Assembly: GCA_963709405.1 (NCBI GenBank)
Contig: CAVPXM010000051.1
Location: forward strand, 1 to 39,227
DNA from: an uncultured Nitrososphaerales archaeon
GTDB lineage: Archaea; Thermoproteota; Nitrososphaeria; Nitrososphaerales; Nitrososphaeraceae
Direction of reading: 5' to 3'
Length of the DNA stretch: 39,227 nt
Below, one piece after another: positions 4,956-39,223 of the stretch (positions within the stretch are counted from its first letter, which is position 1; each line of letters begins with the position of its first letter). The notes beneath the pieces were generated by a model. That model was not told where the DNA came from. It was given only the letters and a program-made list of their open reading frames with translations, and did not search any database. The position numbers were made by a program, and so were the translations under genes.

Positions 4956-5070
4956 TCCTGTTATTCTTGTCGGTAATATTATCTTCTCGTCTTTTCTCTA
5001 AGCTGGTGTCCGGGTTTACGGCTTCTAGCTTGTCTTTAGAACTCTCTACAAATTTGATTGCATCACTTAA

Positions 5071-6247
5071 CAGTTATGTAAAGAATATGTAATGCTCTTC
5101 TGTAAACTAACAGTGCTCGTTCAGATACCATAACACCTTTAGCTTACTCTCTTTTAAATTATCAGCATGAGGGATACATTCCTCAGATTGCTTACAAATA
5201 ATGAAAAGAATAGGTTACATGATAGCATACTTGAGGATAGAGAATCTGGATACCGTGCAAAGATTATTCTTCTTAAGGATGATGGATACACAGTTCCTGA
5301 AATAAGGAAGGCAACTAACCATCATGATAGCAACATAAGAAAATGGATTCATCGTTTCAATGAAAAAGGTATAGATGGAATAGCATCAAAAATACACAAG
5401 CATAAACCAATCAAAATATCTGACGATATGGAGAATAAGATTGTGGAGATAGCAACCAAAAATTCAAGAAAAGATTATGGATTACCATTTTCCACATGGT
5501 CATTAAGAGTACTAGCAGGATTTGTCTCCAAGGAGATGAGCCTTGTAGATGCTATCAGCCACACCGAGGTTAGAAATATCCTCCTAAAACACGGAATAAA
5601 ATATAGGCAGTCAAAGATTACTCTGGAATACAGCCTAGATCCTGAATATCATTTGAAAAAAAGAGAATTGAAGAACTAAGATACAGTAACCTGTCTTCTG
5701 ACTCAGTACTACTCTACGAGGATGAGAAAGGACCGATAGTAGCAAAAACATATGGCGGTACATCTTGGTCCTCTACACAGTCTAAGGTATCCAAAGCTCA
5801 AAAGACAAAGGGAATTCTAAACGTGTTTGGTATATACGATTATACCAATGATCAAATGTGGACGCATGGCTACAAAAAGAAAACCGGAAAACAGTTTTTA
5901 GATTTTATCAAAAGAATGGACCAAAAGTATGACGATAGTATCAAGCAGATATTTCTGATACTTGATAACGCATCGATACATAAATCAAACAAGGTGAAAG
6001 CAGTATTATCCAAATATCATCCAAGGATACACCTTGTATTTCTTCCCACCAGATCACCCGAGCTCAATCTGATAGAGGTAAGATGGCTATGGATGCAACG
6101 ACAAGCAATAAACAATTCCACCTTTCAAAATGAACGTGATATAGGTAAAGCAGTATCTGATTGGGCATGTGATTATAATAAAAACATAGAGGCAAAACTA
6201 GTATAAACAGTTTACATGGAGAAAGCATCTACATGTTTACATAACTC
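5071..6247 (+). mobile_element. IS630-family element, copy 1 (1177 bp)
   Basis: Imperfect TIR (c/g)agttatgtaaa; flanked by TTAA at 5067-5070 and 6248-6251; near-identical to 26646-27822. Confidence 0.95.
5167..6206 (+). CDS. IS630 transposase (two ORFs joined by a probable -1 programmed frameshift at A7G near 5656-5663)
   Basis: HTH-containing ORF A; the -1 frame is open through YEDEKG, LDNAS and PELNLIE (DDE motifs). Confidence 0.9.
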
Positions 6248-10176: not shown

Positions 10177-11678
10177 TTATTGAAGGACAGACGCACCTGG
10201 ATCTTTACAAGGTATTTCGAAATGAAATGATCAAAACCTCCATTTTCAAAAATAAATATAGGTCTTTGAAACTTGATGAAGTATCTACAGCAATTCTAGG
10301 AAGAGGAAAAATTGCAAATGCAACCGGTGAAAACATCTATACCAAGTCTATAGAAGAGCAAAAGCGGTACGTTCTGAGAGATGCTGAACTCGTAATGGAT
10401 CTATCAAAGGTTGATAATAATGAAATTCTCGACCTTATGCTGGTAATAGCAGAACTAACCGGACTCAGTTTAGAAGAAGTCTGTCATACTAGCATATCCA
10501 GATGGTGGTCAAAAGTCTTTGAAGGTATGGGATTTTTGTTGTCAACATCAAACAGCAGCGAAAATATCCAACAAAAATATGAATATGAGGGTGGTAAGGT
10601 AATTGAACCAAAAAAAGGCGTATATCATGATCTAAGAGTAGTTGATGTTGTCAGTCTATACCCATCTATAGCAATCTTGTATAATATCTCATTTGATACT
10701 GTTAATTGCAAGTGCTGCTCAAACAGACAGGATGCAAAGATTCCTCCAGAAGTTCTAGACAAAGGATATTGGATATGCAAACTAAAAGAAGGCGCCTTTC
10801 CAATGAAGTTAAGAGAATTCAAAACAGAGAGAGATATGCAGAAGCATCTAGGTAATAATGTTAAACAGCAAGGACTCAAGATCCTCATAAATGGAGGATA
10901 TGGATTATTTGGTAATCCCACATTCAAGTATGCCGATATCAGAGTAGCTGAACTAATCACGGCTTATGGTAGGCACACTCTTAATCAGATGCAATTTATA
11001 GCCATATCTAATGGTTTTGATGTTGTAGGAGGAGATACTGATTCGTTATTTCTCCTGATCAATGCTGATAAAGATATCTCAAGGTTCATTTGAGAATGTA
11101 AAGATAAGTTAGGAATTGAAGTTGGACATGACAAGACATTTACAAAGGCAATTATCACAAAGAAAAAGCATTACCTGGGAGTTACTGATAAAGGAGATAT
11201 TGTTATCAGAGGCATGGAAGGCGCTAAAAATGATCGCCCTACATGGATTAACAATACGTTTAATCAGTTTGTAAAGGAGATTGTTAGAGATGGTGTAGAT
11301 CCTTTGGTAAACTTAAGTAATTCAATTAACGAACTTGAAGAGAGTAAAATAAATGTAAATGATTTGAAGATATCCGTCAAACTTTCAAAGGATCCAGATC
11401 AATATACAGTGAACCATGCCCAAAAGAAAATAGGTCTCAAACTCAATCTTAAAACAGGAGATGTTATTCAGTATTACAAGTCTGATAATGAAGATGGAAT
11501 ATCATTAGATCCAAATTATATCAGCATCAGAAAATACAAAACAATGTTATGGAATTCAGTTAAAGACCTTCTAGAAGTTGCAGGTTATGATATTACAGCA
11601 ATAGAGCGGAAGTTCGTCGTAAATAATTGTAGTAAGCCAAGGAATATTGGACGACTTTCTGAGGTAGCCAATATGTGA
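10158..11678 (+). pseudogene. polB: Family B DNA polymerase, 5'-truncated, with an in-frame TGA at 11091-11093
   Basis: Motif A DVVSLYPS, motif B KILINGGYG, motif C GGDTDS, KKHY and a CKCC...WIC insert. Both ORFs share a frame and the gap is open. Upstream the frame reads GQTHLDLYKVF, but the exonuclease N-terminus is missing. Confidence 0.9.
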
Positions 11679-22593: not shown

Positions 22594-23758
22594 AGTGAAG
22601 TGTCTAAGTTTATGTCGTTATTCATTCATTACATAACGTAGATTTCGAAATAATTATAGCTTGGGACAAATCATATTTTCATTCTGTGAATCATCGTTCC
22701 AAACTCATACTTACCATACTACAGAAGAACAAGTTAAAGTCATTTATGAAGAATACGAATAACAAAAAGGAATACCGCAGGTTACTGGCTATACTCCAAA
22801 AAGTTGAAGGTAGATCTTATGAAGATATAGCAAATGAACACGGAGTCAGCAGCAGGTCTGTACAAAGGTGGATTGCTGCATACATTAAGAAAGGGATTGA
22901 TGATGGAGTAAGGATGAAGAAACCTGGTGGATCGAAGTCCAGCATAACAGACGAAAACAAAGAGATTATTCTATCAGCATTATTTAACGATCCTCATCTA
23001 TTTGGTTATCTTAGAAATACATGGAGTCTAAGGTCACTTGCACGATGTCTTACAGATGAGCTTGATATTCCAATCAGTTTCAAACATCTACAAAGAATAA
23101 CTAAGGATATGGGAATTAGATGCAAAAGACCAAAATTGGAACTATTACATGGAGAGGATTATGAACAAGGGAAAAAGAGAGTGGATAACTACAAGCATGT
23201 AGCATCAGCTCTGAAAAAAAGAGAGTTATAATGGCATTTGAAGATGAAACTACCATAACACAGAAACCTTGTATTCACAAGTCCATGAGTTTTGAAGGCG
23301 AGCAACGAAAGGATAGAACATAATGGAAGTAGAAAGAAGTTCTCCGCATATATATCCATGCTATGGCCTGAAGAGAAATTAATGACGTATGATTTCTATG
23401 ATAGAATGAATTCTACGAGTACTATTGACCATCTGGAGAATCTCAAGAGAAACATTATGAAAAGTGATTGGTGGAAAAGACTCATACTCATATGGGATAA
23501 CGCTTCATACCATGTAAGCCTAATGGTACGGAATTATATCAATGCACAGAAAGAAGAAGACTGGCTGACCATTATTCACCTACCAAAGAAAGCACCATAC
23601 CTAAATCCAAATGAAAGGAAAGTAAACCAGCAGATAAAATCAGATGTGTGTGGGAATAGATTCTATGAACATATAGAAGAACAAAAAACTGCGGTATCAG
23701 AATACCTAAACAAAACATTTGGAATATGGTATGACGACATTAAATATGACACTTGACT
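22594..23758 (+). mobile_element. IS630-family element, second type (1165 bp)
   Basis: TIR agtgaagtgtc...atgtcg / agtcaagtgtc...atgtcg; TA duplication (22592-22593 and 23759-23760) within a CTAG target. Confidence 0.92.
22686..23756 (+). CDS. IS630 transposase with an A7G slippery site and one additional frameshift near 23305
   Basis: HTH ORF A; motifs FEDET, WDNASYH and PYLNPNE. Confidence 0.85.
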
Positions 23759-26301: not shown

Positions 26302-27998
26302 TTATGGCAGAACTTCCAGGTGGCCTATCATGCTGGGTAGATCATACCTACAATAGTATGTAAAACCACCTACTGTATCAGCCATGAAACTAAATGTTGC
26401 ATTCTGCCCACCTGCTAGATCATGATCCATCTTGTAAGGCGATTGCATACTGAATGTGTGTCTGTCTCTAGCTTCATCTGCAGTATTGTAGAAATGAATT
26501 GTAACGTTATCTCCTTTATGCACTATAATATTTGTCAGTGTGTATACGGCGACTGGCACGCCAAGGTTAGATTCGTCAGCGTTCAGTTCTTGGGTAAAAA
26601 TGTAATATTCATTTGGCTTTAGCCCTAGTGCACTAACCTCCTTAACAGTTATGTAAAGAATATGTAATGCTCTTCTGTAAACTAACAGTGCTCGTTCAGA
26701 TACCATAACACCTTTAGCTTACTCTCTTTTAAATTATCAGCATGAGGGATACATTCCTCAGATTGCTTACAAATAATGAAAAGAATAGGTTACATGATAG
26801 CATACTTGAGGATAGAGAATCTGGATACCGTGCAAAGATTATTCTTCTTAAGGATGATGGATACACAGTTCCTGAAATAAGGAAGGCAACTAACCATCAT
26901 GATAGCAACATAAGAAAATGGATTCATCGTTTCAATGAAAAAGGTATAGATGGAATAGCATCAAAAATACACAAGCATAAACCAATCAAAATATCTGACG
27001 ATATGGAGAATAAGATTGTGGAGATAGCAACCAAAAATTCAAGAAAAGATTATGGATTACCATTTTCCACATGGTCATTAAGAGTACTAGCAGGATTTGT
27101 CTCCAAGGAGATGAGCCTTGTAGATGCTATCAGCCACACCGAGGTTAGAAATATCCTCCTAAAACACGGAATAAAATATAGGCAGTCAAAGATTACTCTG
27201 GGATACAGCCTAGATCCTGAATATCATTTGAAAAAAAGAGAATTGAAGAACTAAGATACAGTAACCTGTCTTCTGACTCAGTACTACTCTACGAGGATGA
27301 GAAAGGACCGATAGTAGCAAAAACATATGGCGGTACATCTTGGTCCTCTACACAGTCTAAGGTATCCAAAGCTCAAAAGACAAAGGGAATTCTAAACGTG
27401 TTTGGTATATACGATTATACCAATGATCAAATGTGGACGCATGGCTACAAAAAGAAAACCGGAAAACAGTTTTTAGATTTTATCAAAAGAATGGACCAAA
27501 AGTATGACGATAGTATCAAGCAGATATTTCTGATACTTGATAACGCATCGATACATAAATCAAACAAGGTGAAAGCAGTATTATCCAAATATCATCCAAG
27601 GATACACCTTGTATTTCTTCCCACCAGATCACCCGAGCTCAATCTGATAGAGGTAAGATGGCTATGGATGCAACGACAAGCAATAAACAATTCCACCTTT
27701 CAAAATGAACGTGATATAGGTAAAGCAGTATCTGATTGGGCATGTGATTATAATAAAAACATAGAGGCAAAACTAGTATAAACAGTTTACATGGAGAAAG
27801 CATCTACATGTTTACATAACTCTTAACTGATGGCTGGGCCGCAGCAATCTTCATCACCCCAACCGGCATCAACAGTGTCAGACCTAAACTTAGTGTCAGT
27901 GTGGCCACAAGTATAAGTGCAACTGGCATCGTTAAAATCCTCCTCATTGCCATAACACATGCGGAACAAATGTATTTATTAAGCATATCTATGCTCAT
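26302..27998 (-). pseudogene. Secreted cupredoxin-domain protein split by IS630 copy 2
   Basis: Removing the IS and one TTAA restores AAAQPSVKEVSALGLKP; VHKGDNVTIHFYN, RHTFS and YYCRYDLPSM. Confidence 0.88.
26646..27822 (+). mobile_element. IS630-family element, copy 2 (1177 bp; transposase 26742-27781)
   Basis: Same TIRs as copy 1; TTAA at 26642-26645 and 27823-27826; only one difference from copy 1 was seen (GAA/GGA). Confidence 0.95.
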
Positions 27999-29091: not shown

Positions 29092-29458
29092 CTACTTTTT
29101 TTCAAAGATTCTTTCTTTATTAGTTGTCGTAGAGCTTACATCTGCAGTAGTAATATTTGTATTTCTTGCAAAATCTAAGAAATCTTTAATCCATTTCTTA
29201 TAAGCATCTATACCATTTTTGGTTATCTTATAGAATGTGAGATTGGAAGAAGTATTTACCGATATAATGTATCCATTCTTCTCAAGTGAATTTATCATGA
29301 GATTCACTCTATCGGGTCTCTGTTGTTTAATACTTCGAATATTTGTCACGATGTTATATTTACTTACGGGTATTTTTGTGAATTTGTATAGAGATATTCA
29401 AGGATTGAAAGCATAGTGTATTCTGATGAGAAGCGATTTTTCTTCTTCTGCCTCTCAT
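29092..29458 (-). CDS. Winged-helix DNA-binding protein with 5' frameshifts
   Basis: MRGRRRK..SSEYTMLSILEYLY..IPVSKYNIVTNI...LEKNGYI...YKITKNG. Confidence 0.7.
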
Positions 29459-29609: not shown

Positions 29610-29963
29610 TTATCTGGGACTATAAAATATTACTGCTGCACCCGATAACACAATAAATGATCCAATGACTTCATATCTATCTGGTTTCTTTTTGTCTATC
29701 AATACTCCCCAGATAATAGAAGATACTACAAAGATTCCACCGTAGGCTGCATATACTCTACCAAAGTTTGATGGTTGGAGCGTTGGAAGAATACCATAAA
29801 TAAATAAAATTACTCCACCAACTAAACCAAGAATTATCGTCTTCTTTTTCCTTATCCATGACCAAATAAGATATCCTCCACCAATCTCTGCAACTGCTGC
29901 GGTAAAGAATAAAGTCAGGGTAACTATGATTAGTATTACTGTTGATTGACCCAGATTGATTTC
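29610..29963 (-). CDS. ynfA: YnfA/UPF0060 (SMR-superfamily) membrane protein, copy 2; start out of frame
   Basis: Open frame FFTAAVAEIGGGYLIW...PTLQPSNFGRVYAAYGGIF...PDRYE; the ATG at 29973 is off by one base, or a CTG at 29954 is used. Confidence 0.88.
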   Translation of the reverse strand, partial: EINLGQSTVILIIVTLTLFFTAAVAEIGGGYLIWSWIRKKKTIILGLVGGVILFIYGILPTLQPSNFGRVYAAYGGIFVVSSIIWGVLIDKKKPDRYEVIGSFIVLSGAAVIFYSPR

Positions 29964-30316
29964 TTACCACCATTCTTTCTAGGCATATAAAATATCACTA
30001 CAACTCCAATAATTGCAATGATTGCTCCTAAAATATCATAGATGTCAGGAACAACCCTTTCAAACAACCATCCCCAAGCTATGGCCATAATAATAAAGAT
30101 TCCACCGTAGCCTGCATAAATTCGATGGAAGTGAGATGGTTGAAAGGTAGGAATTATCCCATAAACAAACAAAACAAACCCACCCATAACTCCTAAAACC
30201 CAACTCATTTCTTCTCTTAACCATAACCATATTAGATATCCGCCACCAATTTCACATAAACCAGCAAGAAAAAATAAGAATAAACTAATTGAGATATTTT
30301 TTATATTACCATTCAA
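29936..30316 (-). CDS. ynfA: YnfA/UPF0060 membrane protein, copy 1
   Basis: AGLCEIGGGYLIW...RIYAGYGGIF...PDIYD. Confidence 0.9.
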   Translation of the reverse strand: MNGNIKNISISLFLFFLAGLCEIGGGYLIWLWLREEMSWVLGVMGGFVLFVYGIIPTFQPSHFHRIYAGYGGIFIIMAIAWGWLFERVVPDIYDILGAIIAIIGVVVIFYMPRKNGGKKSIWVNQQ

Positions 30317-30427
30317 AGTTGTTAATAGGTTACAAAATGGCTATTATAAGAATCTGATGAAAGATTGCAGCTCAGAGCATTCCATGTTGACTCATGAATC
30401 CAGAAGACAAAGAGTTAAGAGTAGCTG

Positions 30428-30562
30428 TTACTCCGTTTCTGCATGAATATTTATACAGCAGCAAATGTTCTTTATGCAATGCTTGCACATGCGAGGATCT
30501 TTCCGATCAATAATAATGCAATCGGTAGGTGCACATAAGCACTCCGAGCATTTGATATTCAT
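30428..30562 (-). CDS. 44-aa Cys-rich metallothionein-like protein
   Basis: MNIKCSECLCAPTDCIIIDRKDPRMCKHCIKNICCCINIHAETE*, with 9 Cys and 2 His. Confidence 0.75.
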   Translation of the reverse strand: MNIKCSECLCAPTDCIIIDRKDPRMCKHCIKNICCCINIHAETE

Positions 30563-30628
30563 ACATAACACTTCCGATTACCGTTATTAATGATTTTCAA
30601 AAAAGAAACATTGAATTGTATCAAACCT

Positions 30629-31043
30629 TTAGGAAGACCATCGTCTCATCCAACGCAATAGGTATACTATAGATTCTACCAACTCTTGCCCTTTATTTGT
30701 TAATCTATATTCTACTCGCGGTGGGATTTCGTTGGATGTTTGTCTTTCTAGAATTTCACTCTTATCAAGTTCCTTTAGCCTTTTCGCTAAAGTCTTGCTA
30801 CTAAAACCCGTCAATGTATTCCTGAATTTAATATATCTAACAGGAGTGGTGGTGCAACACAATGGTATTAGAATTTTGAGTTCCTCTCTTTGTAATTATC
30901 TTACGTAGTTTAGCAGTCTCTTTCATAAGAATATCGGGTTCATATCCATTAAAGTCACAATTTTGAATATCTTGAACAAGTGGTAATTTTGTCCTTGCTT
31001 TTACTGATTTTGCTCTTCCAGTTCTGTTCCCTTTTGTTTCCAT
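30629..31043 (-). CDS. HxlR/DUF24-family winged-helix regulator with one frameshift near 30878
   Basis: SSKTLAKRLKEL...EIPPRVEYRLTNKG; the two ORFs join as ITKRGT..ILIPLCCTT. Confidence 0.88.
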
Positions 31044-31114
31044 AACTACACTTACTTTACTAAACTTCTCTTGACAACTTAAATAGTTTCTCTTGTAAAC
31101 ATATCTTACTAATC
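31044..31114. promoter_or_regulatory. Divergent promoter region with a TATA-like box flanked by direct repeats
   Basis: cttaaata at 31078-31085, about 30 nt upstream of the arsM ATG; ttctcttg at 31066-31073 and 31088-31095. Confidence 0.55.
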
Positions 31115-31906
31115 ATGTATAAACAAGATATTAAAGAAAAAGTCAAAGAAAGATATGGAAAGATAGCATTATTAGGTAATGTTGATTCTTGTTGTATGCC
31201 TGGAGAATGTTGTCAAGTAAATGATGACGATAATACCTTCACCTCACCTATACAATCTTCAAAAATAATTGGATACGATGCAAATGAACTAGAATCAATT
31301 CCACAATCTTCCATTCTTGGAGTTGGATGTGGTGCTCCAACAAAGTTTGCACATATTAAAGAAGGTGATCTAGTAGTGGATTTAGGTTCTGGGGCTGGCA
31401 TAGATGTTTTTCTGGCTGCTAAGAAAGTTGGTAAATCAGGTAGAGTAATTGGTATTGATATGACAGACGAAATGTTAGAAAAAGCAAGGAACAATGCGAA
31501 AGAAAATGGTTATGTGAATGTAGAGTTTAGAAAAGGAGACATAGAAACAAGAATACCTGTAGAAGATAATAGTGTAGATGTTGTTATTAGCAATTGTGTT
31601 ATTAATCTGACAAATAATAAAATTAACACATTCAAAGAGGTATATAGAATTCTTAAACCCAACGGAATCGGCAGAATGATAATCTCTGATTTGGTAACAG
31701 ATAAGGAGATAGATAAAAAATCAATCGATCCTGACAAGTGGTGTAGTTGTATTGATGGTGCATTAACAAAAGAAAACTATCTTGATAGCATTAGAAGGGC
31801 AGGATTTTCTAATGTAGAAGTATTGGAAGAGAAATTATATATGGATGGTGATAATGTGCAAGGCAGAAGAATTACCAGTTTGGTGATAAAGGCAATAAAG
31901 ATCTGA
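31115..31906 (+). CDS. arsM: Arsenite S-adenosylmethionine methyltransferase
   Basis: N-terminal CC pairs, LGVGCGAP, DLGSGAGID, SNCVINL and WCSCIDGA. Confidence 0.93.
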   Translation: MYKQDIKEKVKERYGKIALLGNVDSCCMPGECCQVNDDDNTFTSPIQSSKIIGYDANELESIPQSSILGVGCGAPTKFAHIKEGDLVVDLGSGAGIDVFLAAKKVGKSGRVIGIDMTDEMLEKARNNAKENGYVNVEFRKGDIETRIPVEDNSVDVVISNCVINLTNNKINTFKEVYRILKPNGIGRMIISDLVTDKEIDKKSIDPDKWCSCIDGALTKENYLDSIRRAGFSNVEVLEEKLYMDGDNVQGRRITSLVIKAIKI

Positions 31907-31926
31907 AGGAGAGGAGAATTCGAGTT

Positions 31927-32376
31927 ATGAAATTTTCATTTGGCAGTAGTAGTAAATCAAAGGCAAAGCACACAATTCTTTTTGTATGTATACAAAATGC
32001 AGGTCGTAGTCAGATGGCTGAGGGATTCTTTAGAAAGTATGCTCCCGAAGGCTATGAACCATTAAGTGCTGGAACCAAACCTACTTCAGAAATAAATCCA
32101 ATTGCAATACAAGCAATGAAAGAAGTAGGAATAGACATCAGCAAGCAGAGACCTAAAGATATCACTGAAGACATGATGAGAAACTCTACCAAAATAGTAA
32201 ACATGGGATGTATGGAAAAGGACTGGTGTCCTACCGCGTTCGTTCCTAATCTCGTAGACTGGGGAATAGAAGATCCAAAGGGTAAATCAATAGAAAAGGT
32301 TAGAGAAATCAGAGATGAAATTGAACAGAGAGTAAGAGAATTGACTGTAAACCTACCTAAAGATGTTGACCATTAG
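31927..32376 (+). CDS. arsC: Arsenate reductase, LMW-PTP (thioredoxin-coupled) type
   Basis: CIQNAGRSQMAE (CX5R), SAGT, MGC...CP and DWGIEDP. Confidence 0.92.
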   Translation: MKFSFGSSSKSKAKHTILFVCIQNAGRSQMAEGFFRKYAPEGYEPLSAGTKPTSEINPIAIQAMKEVGIDISKQRPKDITEDMMRNSTKIVNMGCMEKDWCPTAFVPNLVDWGIEDPKGKSIEKVREIRDEIEQRVRELTVNLPKDVDH

Positions 32377-32442
32377 ATGTTTCATCTTTATTAATCCACA
32401 GATTTCAACCTGATTGATTGATTGATTATTATACCTATAGGA

Positions 32443-33189
32443 TTGAAACAGAAAACCTTACTTACAAAGATAGCAAATGGATTAACTTCTAACCAGCGAA
32501 TATTTTTTGTAGAAATTATTGGCACATTCATAGTAGTAGTTCTTGCAACAGGTTCAGTGGTAATTGATGCCAAATTAAATGGAATATTAGGTATACCTTT
32601 CATTGCATTTGCTCCATTTATAGGAGTTGCTGTAGGAGTCTACTTATTTGGAAAAATATCTATGGCTCATTTCAATCCTGCTGTGACATTAGGGTTTCTT
32701 ATTACTAAACATATAACAAGAATCCAGTTATTTTATTACTTTTCGGCAGAGATAATAGGTGCCTTACTTGCAAGTCTTTTTGTAAAATTTGCAATAGGTA
32801 GTGAGGCAAACCTAGGAGCAAATGCTCCAAATTATGCATTTCCTATACCAGTAATAATTGGAGTTGAAATTGCGGCTTCTGCAATGCTAATGGCGGTTAT
32901 CTTTGTAGTTGTCTATACTAGAGGATTAAGAGGATTTAGTGGTATTGCTATAGGTGGTATGGTTGGATTAGATATATTCTTTCTAGCGTTTATATCTGGC
33001 GCTTCAATGAATCCTGCTCGCTCCCTGGCTCCCGCACTTGTCTCTGGAGTCTTGAACAATTTATGGCTTTATTGGTCGGCTACATTTATAGGCACATCAA
33101 TAGTTGCCTTAATGTTTAGAAGGCGTTTATATCAAAAAAATCATAGTTCGTGTTATATTCTACCAAATAAGAAAGTAATGAACAGATAA
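32443..33189 (+). CDS. MIP-family aquaporin, probable As(III) or methyl-arsenical channel
   Basis: HFNPAVT and SMNPARS; co-oriented after arsC; TTG start assumed. Confidence 0.9.
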   Translation: MKQKTLLTKIANGLTSNQRIFFVEIIGTFIVVVLATGSVVIDAKLNGILGIPFIAFAPFIGVAVGVYLFGKISMAHFNPAVTLGFLITKHITRIQLFYYFSAEIIGALLASLFVKFAIGSEANLGANAPNYAFPIPVIIGVEIAASAMLMAVIFVVVYTRGLRGFSGIAIGGMVGLDIFFLAFISGASMNPARSLAPALVSGVLNNLWLYWSATFIGTSIVALMFRRRLYQKNHSSCYILPNKKVMNR

Positions 33190-34495
33190 TAGACAGCAAT
33201 ATTAGTCGCAGTTACTATGAATCCTACTTTAAGAAATTCAGAATATGAAAATGCTTTGACACCTTTGGATTCAGCGGCCTCTATAATGATAATGTTGCTT
33301 GCCGCTCCAAATATTGTAAGGTTACCAGCAATAGTGCTTGCTGCGGCAAGCATCATCCATTCAGAAACATCATCGGCATTAAAGCCATTATCTATCATTA
33401 CATTATTATAAATGACTACGAAAGGAACATTACTTAGTATTTGACTGAATGTTACGCTAACGATTGAAATAATGGTATTGTTTCTAATTATATAATTGTG
33501 ATCGGCGACAGGGTTTGGAATATTTGACATAATCTCAGGGATTAAACCCGATGTCCATAGTGCAGCAGTAAATACAAACATAGGCAGCAAAAAATACTAG
33601 AACAGAATAATCTACGTTATACAATAGTTCTCTACGTTCGTTACTTAAAGCATAAAGTGCTATTGCCCCAATAGCGGCAATAACACTTATGTTAAAATAT
33701 GGAATACGAAAAAGAAACTGAAGAACTTCTGAAATTACAAAACCTAGAACAGTTAAGAAAAGAATAATAACTGAAATTCTGGCAAGATATGGGTTAGTAA
33801 TAACATTGGTCGACAATAGTGCATCGTCTTTAGTAATTACAATCTTATTACCATGATTTACATGATTGGAAACTTTTGATAGTTCTTTTTTAAAATATAC
33901 TTTCAAAATAAAGTAAGTTAGAAATAGATTTAGTATAGTTGGAATAATTAACCATTTCATGAATGTTAAGAATGGTAGAGAAATACCACTTCTGATGGCT
34001 ATTAGCAGATTTTGAGGATTTCCGATAGGAGTCATGACACTTCCTATACTAATTCCAAATGCAAGTGCAATGAAGAGAACTGTTGGTCTAAGCCCAATTT
34101 GTCTTGATACATGTATTACAAGTGGTATACCAAGTAAAGCAATTGTATCATTTACTAAAAATGCAGAAAGTAATCCTAACCCTATAACAAATACGAACAG
34201 TATTGAATTAAGATCACTATTTGCTTTATCTAACATCTTCGCTGCCTACATACTTGAGCACTCCTGACCTGTCAAGTGCAGATACTATACTGAACATTCC
34301 AAAAAGAAATATAATTACATCGAGATTGATTGCTTTAAATGCATCTTCAATGCTAATGACTTGAAGTCCGACCATAAGGCCTGCTCCAATCAACATTGAT
34401 GTCCAAATTGGTATATTATTCAGTCTCCTTCTTTCTATGATAAGAAGGAATACGAGTGCAAGCACGCCTATTGCAATAAACTCATCAGTATACAT
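33153..34495 (-). CDS. ArsB/NhaD/SLC13-type anion permease with two +1 frameshifts
   Basis: LSAFLVND, TPIGNPQN, SQILSNVP and GNLTIFGAASN; three ORFs rejoin near 34245 and 33583. Confidence 0.88.
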
Positions 34496-34781
34496 CTTGC
34501 TTGCTCTTTCATATTGGTTAATATAGTAAATAAATTATGTATTATTCTTTCTTTGTCACAAAAAGCCTGTTTTATTCTAAAACAATCCATACAAGCAATT
34601 TTTTATGGACTTTCTAATTTCATTATGATTACCGAGCGATTTCTAGCGAGTAATTAATTAAATACTGAATTAAACTATTGCTATTACAGGGCGGCATCAA
34701 CATTGTTCAATGTCTTGCTCTGCAATCATCATATGTAAATATCATATTGCTAGTATCTTTACTGGTTGTAAATGTCTTTAT

Positions 34782-35297
34782 ATGTCATCTTCATCTTCGT
34801 CATATTTTGATATCATTAAGTTAAGAAGATTAACTGATGGAAAATTAGTATTATTTGGCATTATTGCAATGATAGCAGCGTTTGCAATATTACTTATTTT
34901 TGTAAGTGGAGGAGGAGTAAGACACGTTCCAATTACCTGGAAGGAGAAAGTAGAAGCAACAATAGCATTTAGAAATATTAATGGAAATGTAAAGGTAGTT
35001 GGTCTAAAGGGAATAACCCAAGTTAATCCTACTTTGGTGTCTAGAACTGGAGATACTGCTTATATTCTTACTATAATAAATCAAGATCCAGGTAGTCCGC
35101 ATATGTTCTATGTTACTGGAATAAACGCACATACAAAAATACTTAGACCATTAGAAAATGATACAATAACAATATATTCAAAAAGTCAGGGAACATATAA
35201 TTACTATGATAGGCTTGATTCTGGTATCAATGGCACAGAAATAAAACCTCTTGGACAATTTATGGCAGTAAAAGTGGGAGGAGATGAATGGTCATAA
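34782..35297 (+). CDS. Membrane-anchored cupredoxin-fold-like protein lacking Cys/Met ligands
   Basis: TM segment, NPTL, IINQD..PHMFY and GTYNYYD. Confidence 0.6.
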   Translation: MSSSSSSYFDIIKLRRLTDGKLVLFGIIAMIAAFAILLIFVSGGGVRHVPITWKEKVEATIAFRNINGNVKVVGLKGITQVNPTLVSRTGDTAYILTIINQDPGSPHMFYVTGINAHTKILRPLENDTITIYSKSQGTYNYYDRLDSGINGTEIKPLGQFMAVKVGGDEWS

Positions 35298-36133
35298 TCC
35301 AGTCGGAATGTGTGTTGTAATCTGAAATACCCTCAAAAACATTGTAATTGCTACAACGATCAACACTATTCCGATTATGCGTTTAAGACTTGTATCACTA
35401 AACCGATTAGTATATCTTGCTCCAAGATATCCACCTATCATTGCAGCAGAACCCATTACCATCAGAACAAGATAATCAATGTTGTGATTTATGATATGTC
35501 CTATCAAACCAGATATTCCCATTACTGATGCTGCTGCCAAGTTTGTTCCTATCGCAACTCTAGGCTCCATTTTTAATAGTGATATCATTGCAGGCATACG
35601 TATGCTTCCAAGAACTAATCCTACTAGACCTCCAAGAAAACCTATTCCGAATCCGATAATCGATTCTAGGAGAATTAATCTATTCTTGCTGTCAGTAAAA
35701 ATTTTATCGCTCGTTTGCAGTTTCATCTAATTCATTATTGTTAATATTGTTGTGCCTTTTCTTTTTTATTCTTGAACCATTAAGTAATGCAAATGATTCG
35801 TATGAGACAATTATACCAATTATCATGAGCAAAAGAACTATGGGAACATAACTTGTAAAGAATGAGCCAATAAATGCTCCGGCAGCACCTGTTGTAGCCA
35901 AAAAAATAAATGCACGAAATTGTATATTTTTTTGATGATAATGACGTATTGCAGCAGTTATTGCACCTAACGTGCTTACTCCAAGGTTTGTTCCTGCAGT
36001 AATACTGACCGAAGTTTCTACACTCATCACCAAGGGAAATCTTACTACTCCTAAAACTAATCCAACCATCCCTCCTACAAATCCTATCGCTAGACCGGAT
36101 AAAGCAAGACCAAGAAAATAGATTATCTCAATA
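35292..36133 (-). CDS. TauE/SafE (TSUP) family permease; one frameshift in the linker, start unclear
   Basis: Two homologous halves: GFVGGMVGLVLG...AGTNL and GFLGGLVGLVLG...IGTNL. Confidence 0.85.
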
Positions 36134-38280: not shown

Positions 38281-39223
38281 GAACCCATCCGAAAAGTAGA
38301 GTTTTATTGAGTTATAAGCAAACTGTGTTTGATCGATAAAGCTAAGCTGTACTACACTTTCTTTTGAGCTGTATTGATATCAGAGGTTACTGGAGTTGAT
38401 TCATCGGTACTGCATACCTGATGTTGTATGGGATAGAATCATTACATTGCTATCATCATCAATACGTAGGAGAAAGAAGAAAAAGGCTGGTCGTCCAAGA
38501 ATGGATGACAGGAAGGCCATGAGTGCTATTTTCTACGTCCTACGTACAGGCTGTCAGTGGAATGCTCTACCTAGAAGTCTTGGTGCTTCAAGTACAGTAC
38601 ATGACAGATTCCAGGAATGGAGAAAGGCTGGTGTTTTCAAGCGAATGTGGATCGATGGATTGTCGGTATATGATAAAAAAACTGGGATCGATTGGAAATG
38701 GCAGGCTATGGATGGCGTTATTACAAAAGCGCCTCTTGGGGGAAAAAAGCACAGGACCAAATCCCACGGACAGAGCTAAATCAGGTACAAAACGTAGTAT
38801 TCTGGTAGATGGTAAAGGAGTACCACTTGGTGTATGTGTAGATGGAGCTAACAGGCATGACATGAAGATGACCAAAGCAACATTGCAAAGCATAGTCATC
38901 TATAGACCTGAACCAACAATCAGATCAAAGCAGCACATGTGCATGGACAAAGGCTACGCGTTTCCAGAGGTATACGAATTACTGGAAGAGTATGGCTATA
39001 CAATTCACATCAGATTAAAAGGAAAGGAAAGAAGGCAGCATTAAAGAAGGAATACCAAAATACAGAGCTAGACGATGGGTTGTTGAAAGAACCCATTCTT
39101 GGATGAACAGATTCAGACGATTGCTGGTAAGATGGGAAAAGAGGATTGAAAACTATATTGGAATGTTACATTTTGCATGTGCATGGATCACCTATAGAAG
39201 AAGTGGACTTTTCGCATAGGCTC
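38281..39223 (+). mobile_element. IS5-family element (IS402/IS427-like, 943 bp)
   Basis: TIR gaacccatccgaaaagt / gagcctatgcgaaaagt; TAA duplication at 38278-38280 and 39224-39226; LRTGCQW, a G5A6G frameshift site, DKGY and RWVVER; extra frameshift near 39040. Confidence 0.93.

What the first reader, a model, noticed from the sequence alone, without database searches (positions are those of the whole stretch)
29610..34495. ArsR-less archaeal arsenic locus with a divergent HxlR(Cys-Cys) - Cys-rich peptide - YnfA pair arm
Seen: arsM-arsC-aquaporin on + and an ArsB-like permease converging on it. Only 71 bp upstream of arsM, on the - strand, lie an HxlR regulator, a 9-Cys peptide and two YnfA genes. 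Known: ars operons are usually controlled by ArsR/SmtB repressors, and none is recognisable here. Inference: one arsenic-responsive unit combining reduction, methylation, efflux, thiol sequestration and SMR-type export under a non-canonical sensor.
Basis: partly seen in the sequence, partly recalled or inferred. Interest (0 to 1): 0.85.

Follow-up and report, generated by a model that had tools for sequence, protein, structure and literature searches.

The report
Archaeal arsenic operon with HxlR-type regulator
A soil ammonia-oxidising archaeon carries an arsenic methylation, reduction and channel operon whose conserved partner is a three-cysteine HxlR-type regulator rather than the usual ArsR, though this copy of the regulator is broken and the neighbouring transporter genes are only loosely attached.

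Summary
arsM, arsC and a NIP-like aquaporin lie on +. An HxlR gene starts 71 bp upstream on -, followed by a 44-aa, 9-Cys ORF and two YnfA genes. A convergent permease closes the locus. No ArsR is on the contig.

Corrections:
- The HxlR gene here is split by a 2-nt deletion.
- The permease belongs to the CitMHS/IT superfamily, not ArsB. It is split in three in this assembly, but short-read contigs lack the two extra bases.
- YnfA2 has no ATG/GTG/TTG start.

The strong result is comparative. In 73 of 75 evaluable loci across Nitrososphaeraceae and Nitrosotalea, this HxlR clade sits divergent from arsM or arsC. The loci share a near-invariant promoter core. Three cysteines are invariant in the regulator and absent from other HxlR paralogues. 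It is the best candidate As(III) sensor, by inference only.

The Cys ORF and YnfA pair form a separate soft-metal module: 16 of 24 YnfA loci examined have no ars or HxlR gene nearby. "One arsenic-responsive unit" is therefore only partly supported. I rate it a new variant of a known kind.

The parts
31115..31906 (+). arsM, arsenite S-adenosylmethionine methyltransferase, 263 aa, intact
   Evidence: NF008823 scores 285.6 bits against a cut-off of 263. Pfam Methyltransf_31 E = 3e-35. Cys aligned to Cys72/174/224 of chains 4fr0/4kw7.
31927..32376 (+). arsC, LMW-PTP-type arsenate reductase, 149 aa, intact
   Evidence: PF01451 scores 83.6 bits. Best solved relatives are arsenate reductases 3t38, 3rh0 and 2cd7, with the CX5R loop and two distal Cys aligned. 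It scores below the NCBIfam equivalog cut-offs.
32422..33189 (+). MIP channel of the AqpN/NIP-like kind, 255 aa from a TTG start; the probable As(III) exit channel
   Evidence: PF00230 scores 123 bits. Best solved relative is rice NIP2;1, 7cjs/7nl4, E = 7.5e-25. Present in 16 of 20 arsM loci.
31044..31114 (.). 71-bp divergent intergenic region holding the 33-bp conserved core at 31068-31100, with TTAAATAG at 31079-31086 and GTAAAC at 31095-31100
   Evidence: Alignment of 20 loci. Core positions 90-100% conserved in 74 loci. Seven copies in this genome, each beside an hxlR copy.
30837..31043 (-). hxlR, N-terminal frame (68 aa, carries Cys31); leaves the orthologues' frame after residue 55
   Evidence: tblastn to orthologues covers residues 1-55. 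DNA alignment with 5 paralogues shows a 2-nt gap.
30629..30862 (-). hxlR, C-terminal frame (77 aa, starts at the Cys-Cys pair, then the winged helix-turn-helix)
   Evidence: PF01638 scores 64.2 bits. Orthologues are single ORFs of about 127-157 aa.
30428..30562 (-). 44-aa ORF with 9 Cys, a member of an unannotated Cys-rich mini-domain family
   Evidence: No Pfam or NCBIfam hit. Family alignment A3 has 8 invariant Cys/Pro columns. Six copies in the genome. 115 cluster representatives at E <= 0.001.
29936..30316 (-). ynfA1 (UPF0060), 126 aa, TTG start
   Evidence: PF02694 scores 134.3 bits and NF002586 scores 130.9 bits. dN/dS is 0.34 against the C73 paralogue.
29610..29960 (-). ynfA2 (UPF0060), an open frame of 116 codons with no ATG/GTG/TTG start
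   Evidence: NF002586 scores 134.7 bits. Start-codon comparison across 20 loci. dN/dS is 0.12 against the C73 paralogue.
33153..34495 (-). CitMHS/IT-superfamily permease, convergent on the aquaporin. It is split into three frames by single extra bases at 34245 and 33583
   Evidence: Pfam CitMHS on all three pieces. Short-read contigs lack these bases. Dropping both gives 446 aa with 86% identity and no gaps to G002:C97.
29092..29349 (-). 85-aa winged-helix-like ORF that follows YnfA pairs in this genus (140 aa on contig C73)
   Evidence: Weak HTH_34 match. Found downstream of YnfA2 in L059, L060, L062, L063, L068 and L041.

Best explanation
The window holds one copy of a clade-wide arsenic detoxification cassette of soil ammonia-oxidising archaea. 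It sits next to a separate soft-metal module, in an IS-rich, partly decaying region.

Cassette. An HxlR/DUF24-family winged-helix regulator and the operon arsM-arsC-aqp are transcribed divergently from a 71-bp region built around one TATA-like box.

Inferred mechanism. The regulator dimer binds the near-invariant core that overlaps the TATA box and the arsM start region, and so represses both directions. As(III), or methylarsenite, binds the clade-specific thiols Cys31, Cys65 and Cys66 and releases it. ArsC then reduces arsenate. ArsM methylates As(III). The NIP-like channel lets As(III) or methylated As(III) leave down its gradient.

This copy. The cis regulator gene is broken by a 2-nt deletion, so control would have to come in trans from the one intact paralogue, on contig C25.

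Neighbouring module. The 9-Cys mini-protein and the YnfA1/YnfA2 pair (a likely heteromeric small exporter) form a module of their own. It recurs beside several kinds of metal(loid) genes and has landed downstream of hxlR in a minority of lineages. The permease is a neighbour only within this genus.

Shown: gene identities, synteny, conservation of the promoter core and of the Cys residues, and the lesions. Inferred: ligand, repression, and any co-regulation of the YnfA arm.
For: Gene identities.

Regulator and ars pairing:
- 19 of 20 arsM loci have the regulator divergent.
- 73 of 75 evaluable loci have an ars gene divergent within 450 nt: arsM first in 59, arsC in 13, an aqp fragment in 1.
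- In G008, G032 and G010, which lack arsM, hxlR faces arsC, followed by aqp in G008 and G032 (G010's contig ends inside arsC).

Family of the regulator:
- PF01638 scores 71.3 bits on the intact paralogue.
- The model (mean pLDDT 73.5) matches HxlR/DUF24 structures first: 2fsw, 1z7u, 1yyv, HxlR 7bze, YodB, HypR, QsrR. ArsR/SmtB-type entries (BigR, SqrR, SmtB) come only at ranks 28-38.

Cysteines:
- C31, C65 and C66 are invariant in 17 of 17 orthologues.
- Two other HxlR paralogues have the canonical N-terminal Cys-Pro instead and no Cys-Cys pair.

Promoter core:
- CTTGACAACTTAAAT(A/G)GTTT and GTAAA are 90-100% conserved in 74 loci spanning several genera.
- Seven copies occur in this genome, each beside an hxlR copy.

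No ArsR on the contig.

Separate module:
- A Cys-domain ORF lies within about 1.5 kb of 8 of 22 YnfA loci.
- The domain also follows aqp (G000:C2, G003:C25) and a P-type ATPase (C73). It is fused to an aquaporin C-terminus (L095) and to a MerB domain (P0189).
- The 33-bp core was found in only 2 of 20 YnfA loci, both at the arsM-hxlR intergenic region.
Against: - No binding, ligand or expression data exist. The arsenic response of the regulator is inferred from synteny and cysteines alone.
- The model places Cys31 in a low-confidence segment ahead of helix 1 (pLDDT about 48-67). The tools give no coordinates, so I could not test whether the three thiols can meet.
- Solved thiol sensors of this family (YodB, HypR, QsrR) respond to oxidants and electrophiles, so a general thiol-stress signal is equally compatible.
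- The conserved core could reflect only a shared TATA box with two flanking BRE elements.
- The regulator copy in the window is disrupted. Five of the six other copies in the genome also carry lesions or are fragments.
- hxlR and the YnfA pair are adjacent in at least four genera, with gaps as short as 54 nt. That argues for some functional tie, which my 'separate module' reading plays down.
Confidence: 0.6

Rival explanations
1. The whole stretch 29610-34495 is one arsenic-responsive unit. The HxlR sensor co-regulates arsM-arsC-aqp on one side and hxlR, the Cys peptide and ynfA1-ynfA2 on the other, and the permease adds efflux.
For: - The same hxlR-ynfA arrangement, divergent from arsM-arsC-aqp, recurs in G024:C61, G036 (single ynfA), G020:C62 and loci L132, L141 and L150. 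Decayed versions occur in G004:C47 and G002:C17.
- Gaps between hxlR and ynfA1 are as small as 54-107 nt.
- Cys-domain ORFs also follow aqp in two ars operons and are fused to an aquaporin C-terminus in L095.
- The permease is convergent on the operon in G004:C84 and G006:C476 as well.
Against: - YnfA follows hxlR in only 7 of 75 loci, and 16 of 24 YnfA loci have no ars or HxlR gene nearby.
- Stand-alone YnfA loci lack the conserved promoter core.
- Within this genus a TATA-like box lies about 30-40 nt upstream of ynfA1, which suggests its own promoter.
- UPF0060 mutants are specifically thallium-sensitive (10.1101/072470).
- On contig C73 the same arm faces a P-type ATPase, not arsM.
- The permease fails both ArsB tests.
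Confidence: 0.2
2. The HxlR-type protein is a general thiol-stress, redox or electrophile sensor, like YodB, HypR or QsrR. It switches on the ars genes as part of a broader thiol-damage response and does not recognise arsenic specifically.
For: The closest solved folds are exactly these thiol-based sensors. Cysteines are the only clade-specific feature seen.
Against: - The cysteines do not occupy the family's canonical sensing positions. HypR residue 49 aligns to query residue 80, not 65/66, and the N-terminal Cys lies outside the aligned domain.
- A vicinal Cys pair plus a third Cys is the arrangement recalled for three-coordinate As(III) sites in ArsR proteins. This comes from memory, not from a call.
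- The gene's only conserved partners are ars genes, in 73 of 75 loci.
Confidence: 0.15
3. This copy is a non-functional, decaying duplicate in an IS-rich region. Nothing here is regulated as a unit, and the working arsenic genes of the organism lie elsewhere (C61, or C2 with ACR3).
For: - hxlR carries a 2-nt deletion, and ynfA2 lacks a canonical start.
- TauE next door is split.
- The window holds three IS630-like copies and another transposase.
- The genome holds 7 promoter-core copies and many ars fragments.
- An ACR3 gene lies on C2 beside another ars copy.
Against: - arsM, arsC and aqp are intact here.
- The two permease frameshifts are absent from near-identical short-read contigs, so at least some breaks may be assembly errors.
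- ynfA1 and ynfA2 show purifying selection since duplication, with dN/dS of 0.34 and 0.12.
Confidence: 0.05

Closest known systems
ArsR/SmtB-repressed ars operons (e.g. E. coli R773 arsRDABC, pI258 arsRBC)
   Same: Both use a small dimeric winged-helix regulator encoded next to arsenic genes. Cysteine thiols are the likely As(III) ligands. An ArsC reductase belongs to the set.
   Different: The regulator here belongs to Pfam HxlR (PF01638), not HTH_5. Its predicted fold matches HxlR/DUF24 structures ahead of any ArsR/SmtB entry. It is transcribed divergently rather than as the first gene. The cassette has no ArsB or ACR3 pump.
Thiol-based HxlR/DUF24 regulators YodB, HypR and QsrR, and formaldehyde-sensing HxlR
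   Same: Same Pfam family and fold. Signal perception through cysteines is plausible.
   Different: The canonical N-terminal Cys-Pro of helix 1 is missing. Instead there is a Cys ahead of helix 1 and a Cys-Cys pair at the end of helix 2. The conserved partner genes are ars genes, not quinone or nitro reductases.
Sinorhizobium meliloti arsR-aqpS-arsC-arsH, and bacterial AqpN channels in ars operons (recalled; the AqpN clade as the origin of plant NIPs is from the abstract of bioRxiv 10.1101/351064)
   Same: A MIP channel takes the place of an efflux pump beside ArsC, so As(III) made from arsenate leaves downhill. The channel here is closest to the As(III)/Si channel NIP2;1 among solved structures.
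   Different: It is combined with ArsM, it is archaeal, and its regulator is not ArsR.
UPF0060/YnfA small membrane proteins
   Same: Both window genes score above the Pfam and NCBIfam cut-offs.
   Different: In this family of archaea (f1 in the tool's coded taxonomy) they occur as a conserved tandem pair of two subtypes. The known phenotypes are thallium(I) resistance in four bacteria (10.1101/072470, passages) and drug efflux in Shigella (PMC9295541, search listing only). Nothing links them to arsenic: 2 papers hold both words, both incidental by listing.

Membership tests
ArsM (arsenite methyltransferase) | Score above the curated family cut-off | tested here: met
   NF008823 scores 285.6 bits against a cut-off of 263.
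ArsM (arsenite methyltransferase) | Cysteines at the As(III)-binding positions of the solved enzyme. The residue numbers 72, 174 and 224 are recalled; the alignment was checked here. | tested here: met
   Query Cys in GCG, SNCV and CSCIDGAL align to Cys at chain positions 72, 174 and 224 of 4fr0/4kw7.
ArsM (arsenite methyltransferase) | Methylation of As(III) in vitro or in vivo | not testable with these tools
LMW-PTP-type (thioredoxin-coupled) ArsC | LMWPc domain with a CX5R loop and two distal Cys | tested here: met
   PF01451 scores 83.6 bits. The alignment to 2cd7 shows Cys/Arg of the loop and both distal Cys paired.
LMW-PTP-type (thioredoxin-coupled) ArsC | NCBIfam equivalog cut-off | tested here: not met
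   NF010053 scores 98.4 against 215. TIGR02691 scores 88.2 against 174.3.
ArsB arsenite pump | Match to ArsB models | tested here: not met
   PF02040 found 0 matches in the genome. NF033877 scores 39.5 against 760. NF011980 scores 36.6 against 457. Only Pfam CitMHS matches.
ArsR/SmtB regulators | HTH_5 domain in or beside the locus | tested here: not met
   None of the 15 HTH_5 matches of the genome lies on this contig. The regulator matches HxlR, not HTH_5.
HxlR/DUF24 regulators | PF01638 domain and the winged-helix fold of the family | tested here: met
   71.3 bits on the intact paralogue and 64.2 bits on the window's C-terminal frame. The top 25 fold matches are family members.
HxlR/DUF24 regulators | Canonical sensing Cys (Cys-Pro) at the start of helix 1, as in YodB, HypR and QsrR | tested here: not met
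   The alignments do not reach Cys31, and HypR Cys49 aligns to query residue 80. Other paralogues in these genomes do have the Cys-Pro.
HxlR/DUF24 regulators | Uninterrupted reading frame in this window | tested here: not met
   There is a 2-nt gap relative to 5 paralogues and 19 orthologues. Whether it is real or an assembly error could not be settled.
UPF0060/YnfA | Family model above cut-off, for both genes | tested here: met
   PF02694 scores 134.3 bits for ynfA1; genome search scores are 134.0 and 142.2 bits. NF002586 scores 130.9 and 134.7 against a cut-off of 114.
MIP channels, AqpN/NIP-like | MIP domain, two NPA boxes, and closest relatives among metalloid channels | tested here: met
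   PF00230 scores 123 bits. HFNPAV and SMNPAR are in the translation. The best solved hit is NIP2;1. No tree was built, so clade membership is only indicated.

The most novel reading that the evidence does not exclude
Soil and acid-soil ammonia-oxidising archaea (Nitrososphaeraceae, Nitrosotalea) have replaced ArsR with a previously unrecognised As(III)-sensing clade of HxlR/DUF24 regulators. The sensor uses a three-thiol site made of a Cys ahead of helix 1 and a Cys-Cys pair at the end of helix 2. It acts on a single shared TATA box that drives both the sensor gene and arsM-arsC-aqp. A second unannotated element is a 44-aa, nine-Cys mini-domain found free, on a 266-aa membrane protein, on an aquaporin tail and on a MerB domain. 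It would be a metal(loid) chaperone or buffer that serves channels and small exporters such as the YnfA1/YnfA2 pair.
Probability: 0.4. Interest if true: 0.75.

Novelty: new variant of a known kind. Interest (0 to 1): 0.6.

Why it matters
To my knowledge (recalled), every As(III)-responsive repressor characterised so far belongs to the ArsR/SmtB family. A second family doing the same job would be a clear case of convergent sensor evolution. It would also supply a new arsenic biosensor scaffold.

The hosts are among the most abundant archaea in soils. Their arsM-arsC-aqp cassette is nearly universal in the family: strong arsM matches (E <= 1e-60) in 24 of 36 family genomes sampled beside the window's own. 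How it is switched on therefore bears on arsenic methylation and mobility in agricultural soils.

My searches of the held library found no paper linking HxlR regulators to arsenic sensing. They also found no study of arsenic genes in ammonia-oxidising archaea beyond incidental mentions.

The Cys-rich mini-domain has no Pfam or NCBIfam model. It is a small but testable new family.

Tried and rejected
- HypR analogy. I thought Cys31 and Cys66 (35 residues apart) might match HypR Cys14/Cys49. The PDB alignment puts HypR residue 49 opposite query residue 80, so I dropped the idea.
- Cys mini-protein structure. The model had mean pLDDT 56.3 and was uninformative, so I ran no fold search on it.
- Operator definition. 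I looked for a clean dyad in the core. I found only an imperfect GACAAC...GTTTC symmetry around the TATA box, a TTCTCTTG-N2-AAC direct repeat and a TTTAC/GTAAA pair. None can be told apart from BRE and initiator elements by sequence alone.
- Systematic basecalling error. Both permease frameshifts sit at the 8-mer TAGGCAGC, on opposite strands. Ten other GGCAGC sites in the window show no evident problem, and genome k-mer counts were uninformative, so this stays a suspicion.
- Read evidence for the hxlR lesion. The four runs laid are all contigs. No indel was listed at 30863-30878, and only short loose ends at 30878 come from relatives that encode the intact motif. This is inconclusive.
- RNA-library run X18. 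One contig covers 29803-30079 across the ynfA1/ynfA2 junction with 2 mismatches. The tool warns that DNA may be present in such a library, so I do not count it as expression. Parts without cover are not interpreted.
- dN/dS of the Cys ORF between C51 and C73 is 0.63 over 43 codons, too few sites to decide between selection and drift.
- Ralstonia transporter paper (PMC2448597). The search counted 'YnfA' three times, but the held main text had none. Supplements are closed and may hold it.
- I did not use complex prediction, because a MarR-type homodimer would pass by likeness alone.

Full report
WHAT IS THERE

The window is a whole 39,227-nt contig (C51) of a 4.83-Mb, 100-contig genome with about 36% G+C and 91% estimated completeness.

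On the + strand lie three intact genes:
- arsM (31115-31906) passes the NCBIfam arsenite methyltransferase cut-off, 285.6 against 263 bits. Its cysteines align with the three cysteines at positions 72, 174 and 224 of the solved algal enzyme. That these are the As(III) ligands is recalled, not tested.
- arsC (31927-32376) is an LMW-PTP-type reductase. The CX5R loop and both distal cysteines pair with those of the pI258 enzyme. It scores below the NCBIfam equivalog cut-offs.
- The MIP channel (32422-33189) has two NPA boxes. Its closest solved relative is the rice arsenite/silicic acid channel NIP2;1.

On the - strand, starting 71 bp from arsM, lie:
- an HxlR-family gene,
- a 44-aa ORF with nine cysteines,
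- two UPF0060/YnfA genes.

A permease converges on the aquaporin. None of the genome's 15 HTH_5 (ArsR-type) matches is on this contig.

CORRECTIONS TO THE OBSERVATION

1. The HxlR gene is split.
- Residues 1-55 of the 68-aa upstream frame and the whole 77-aa downstream frame each match the orthologues. The orthologues are single ORFs.
- A DNA alignment with the five other copies in this genome shows a 2-nt gap in the window at the codons for Leu-Glu of the motif GTLEILIPLCC.
- The lesion is not a homopolymer slip. No contig in the four runs laid settled whether it is real.

2. The permease is not ArsB.
- Only Pfam CitMHS matches. The ArsB models score 39.5 bits against a cut-off of 760 and 36.6 against 457, and PF02040 finds nothing in the genome.
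- It is read in three frames. However, near-identical short-read contigs from soil metagenomes lack one base at 34245 (runs X1 and X2) and one at 33583 (X1).
- Removing both bases gives a 446-aa frame that is colinear, without gaps, with the 446-aa homologue of G002 at 86% identity. These two breaks may therefore be assembly errors or strain variants.

3. YnfA2 has no ATG, GTG or TTG start.
- This holds in the window, in the C73 copy and in G001:C104. G004:C47 and G020:C38 have an ATG at the equivalent place.
- dN/dS against the C73 copy is 0.12, so the gene seems to be translated. How it starts is unexplained.

THE REGULATOR-ARS PAIRING IS THE ROBUST RESULT

Synteny:
- In 20 arsM loci from 16 related genomes, the HxlR gene lies divergent from arsM in 19. 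The exception is a contig that ends 118 nt beyond arsM. arsC follows in 18 and the aquaporin in 16.
- A wider scan of one genome per species found 512 stretches encoding relatives. I examined the best 80 loci. Five sit at contig edges. In 73 of the other 75, an ars gene lies divergent within 450 nt: arsM in 59, arsC in 13, an aquaporin fragment in 1. L131 and L150 are the exceptions.
- The records are labelled Nitrososphaeraceae, Nitrososphaera, Nitrosocosmicus, Nitrosopolaris and Nitrosotalea. One contig, probably misbinned, is labelled Acidobacteriota.
- In the first sample of 61 genomes, the clade was found in 30, all in the window's own family.
- In three genomes without arsM, the regulator faces arsC, followed by aqp in two of them (the third contig ends inside arsC).

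Family of the regulator:
- The intact paralogue matches Pfam HxlR at 71.3 bits.
- Its model has mean pLDDT 73.5, with helices at 38-53, 57-65, 73-79, 85-97 and 119-141 and a β-wing at 101-117.
- It finds HxlR/DUF24 structures first (2fsw, 1z7u, 1yyv, HxlR, YodB, HypR, QsrR). ArsR/SmtB-type entries come only from rank 28.

Cysteines:
- Cys31, Cys65 and Cys66 are invariant in 17 of 17 orthologues.
- Cys65 ends helix 2 and Cys66 follows it. Cys31 lies just ahead of helix 1, in a low-confidence segment.
- Two other HxlR paralogues, one in this genome and one in a related genome (G036), carry the family's usual N-terminal Cys-Pro and no Cys-Cys pair.
- The three cysteines do not align with the sensing cysteines of HypR.

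THE INTERGENIC REGION

- Twenty loci align over the whole gap.
- In 74 loci, the stretch CTTGACAACTTAAAT(A/G)GTTT and a GTAAA about 8 nt further on are 90-100% conserved.
- The TTAAATAG box lies 28 nt before the arsM start codon and 35 nt before the hxlR start codon. It is flanked on each side by an A-rich element where a BRE would be expected. My reading is a single shared TATA box serving both directions, with the regulator's site overlapping it. This is inference.
- The genome holds seven copies of the 33-nt core, with two or fewer mismatches, each beside an hxlR copy.
- Only the C25 copy of hxlR is intact. C51 has the 2-nt deletion. C73 has TGA at the Cys31 codon. C20 has TGA at Trp134. 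C2 and C61 are disturbed near the 5' end. C6 is a fragment.
- Stop-creating substitutions are not typical long-read errors, so at least part of this decay is real.

THE YNFA ARM IS A DIFFERENT MODULE

Distribution of UPF0060 genes:
- They occur in 21 of 61 genomes sampled, all in the window's own family. They are almost always a tandem pair with the YnfA1 type first.
- Of the 24 YnfA loci I examined, 8 have an HxlR or ars gene beside them: the window, C73, G024:C61, G024:C87, G036 at 73.6 kb, G020:C62, and decayed versions in G002:C17 and G004:C47. The other 16 do not.
- The promoter core was found in only 2 of the 20 fetched YnfA loci, both at an arsM-hxlR gap.
- On contig C73 the same hxlR, Cys ORF, ynfA1, ynfA2 and winged-helix arm faces a P-type ATPase and an ArsR-like fragment instead of arsM.
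- Within this genus a TATA-like box is conserved about 30-40 nt before ynfA1.
- The published phenotype of the family is thallium(I) sensitivity of mutants in four bacteria. The authors note that the genes are sometimes adjacent to czcD or zntA relatives (bioRxiv 10.1101/072470, passages read).

The nine-Cys ORF:
- It belongs to a family with the pattern C-x2-C-x-C-x-P-x2-C ... C-x2-C ... C-C-C, with no Pfam or NCBIfam model.
- It lies within about 1.5 kb of 8 of 22 YnfA loci.
- It follows the aquaporin in two ars operons (G000:C2, G003:C25) and follows the P-type ATPase on C73.
- It forms the N-terminus of a 266-268-aa membrane protein in G014 and G036. That protein has 1027 database relatives, all unnamed or 'hypothetical'.
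- It continues an aquaporin frame in L095 and is fused to a MerB domain in one representative.
- A profile search of 1.84 billion representatives found 115 proteins at E <= 0.001.
- A metal(loid)-binding role is plausible but untested. The window copy shows weak constraint, with dN/dS of 0.63.

THE PERMEASE AND OTHER ARSENIC GENES

- Close relatives of the permease lie next to the operon only in this genus: G004:C84, G006:C476, and remnants on C61 and L072. Elsewhere they are unlinked.
- An ACR3 pump gene is on contig C2, about 1.3 kb from another ars copy.

VERDICT

The gene inventory is right. The 'no ArsR, HxlR instead' idea is strongly supported by comparative evidence, and the library searches found nothing in print on it. 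The claim of one integrated arsenic unit is not supported as stated. The window is an IS-rich region in which a conserved cassette, a mobile soft-metal module and a genus-specific permease lie side by side, and the local regulator copy is broken. The mechanism is inferred; no experiment or expression data bear on it yet.

Noticed in passing
window 5066-6206, 22686-23756, 26641-27781, 38523-39044: There are three IS630-like elements (HTH plus DDE_3 ORFs). The copies at about 5066 and 26641 are identical over at least 300 nt. A DDE_Tnp_1 transposase ORF lies at the contig end. In each IS630-like element the transposase is in two ORFs.
   Followed up: partly
window 35292-36069 (-): A TauE/SafE-type exporter is split into 121-aa and 144-aa frames that overlap by 23 nt, another apparent frameshift. 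Whether it is real or an assembly error was not tested.
   Followed up: no
G000 contigs C2, C6, C20, C25, C51, C61, C73: The genome carries seven copies of the ars/hxlR promoter core and many arsM, arsC and aqp fragments, but only one intact hxlR (C25, with no arsM beside it). This is an unusual amplification and decay of the cassette in the large genomes of this genus.
   Followed up: partly
window 33583 and 34245: Both single-base insertions that break the permease sit at the same 8-mer, TAGGCAGC, on opposite strands. Short-read contigs lack them. This looks like a motif-linked systematic error but was not proven.
   Followed up: partly
window 29613-29960; L041 (G000:C73); L068 (G001:C104): ynfA2 lacks any ATG/GTG/TTG start in three loci of this genus, yet it evolves under purifying selection (dN/dS 0.12). 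Its frame overlaps the end of ynfA1 by about 25 nt. A non-canonical start or coupled re-initiation is possible.
   Followed up: partly
L026 8554-9354 (G014); L058 3035-3856 (G036): A 266-268-aa protein has the nine-Cys domain at its N-terminus and a membrane domain with no Pfam match. It has 1027 relatives at E <= 0.001, all unnamed or 'hypothetical', including one in Ca. Nitrososphaera evergladensis.
   Followed up: partly
L072 (record labelled Acidobacteriota MAG, 248-kb contig): This locus holds a 92%-identical copy of the archaeal hxlR with aquaporin and permease remnants beside it. The contig is probably an archaeal one binned into a bacterial MAG.
   Followed up: no
L112, L119, L128, L130, L133, L134, L137 (Nitrosotalea and unclassified Nitrososphaerota/Nitrosopumilales-labelled records): In these loci the operon order is arsC-arsM-arsC-aqp, with a second arsC copy placed between hxlR and arsM.
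   Followed up: no
window 26302-26706 (-) and 34710-35297 (+): Two small cupredoxin-like ORFs flank the region. A near-copy of the first lies on contig C2 beside the other ars copy.
   Followed up: no
window 10227-11093 (+): A 288-aa fragment of a family B DNA polymerase stands alone among short ORFs. It is probably a gene remnant or part of an integrated element.
   Followed up: no
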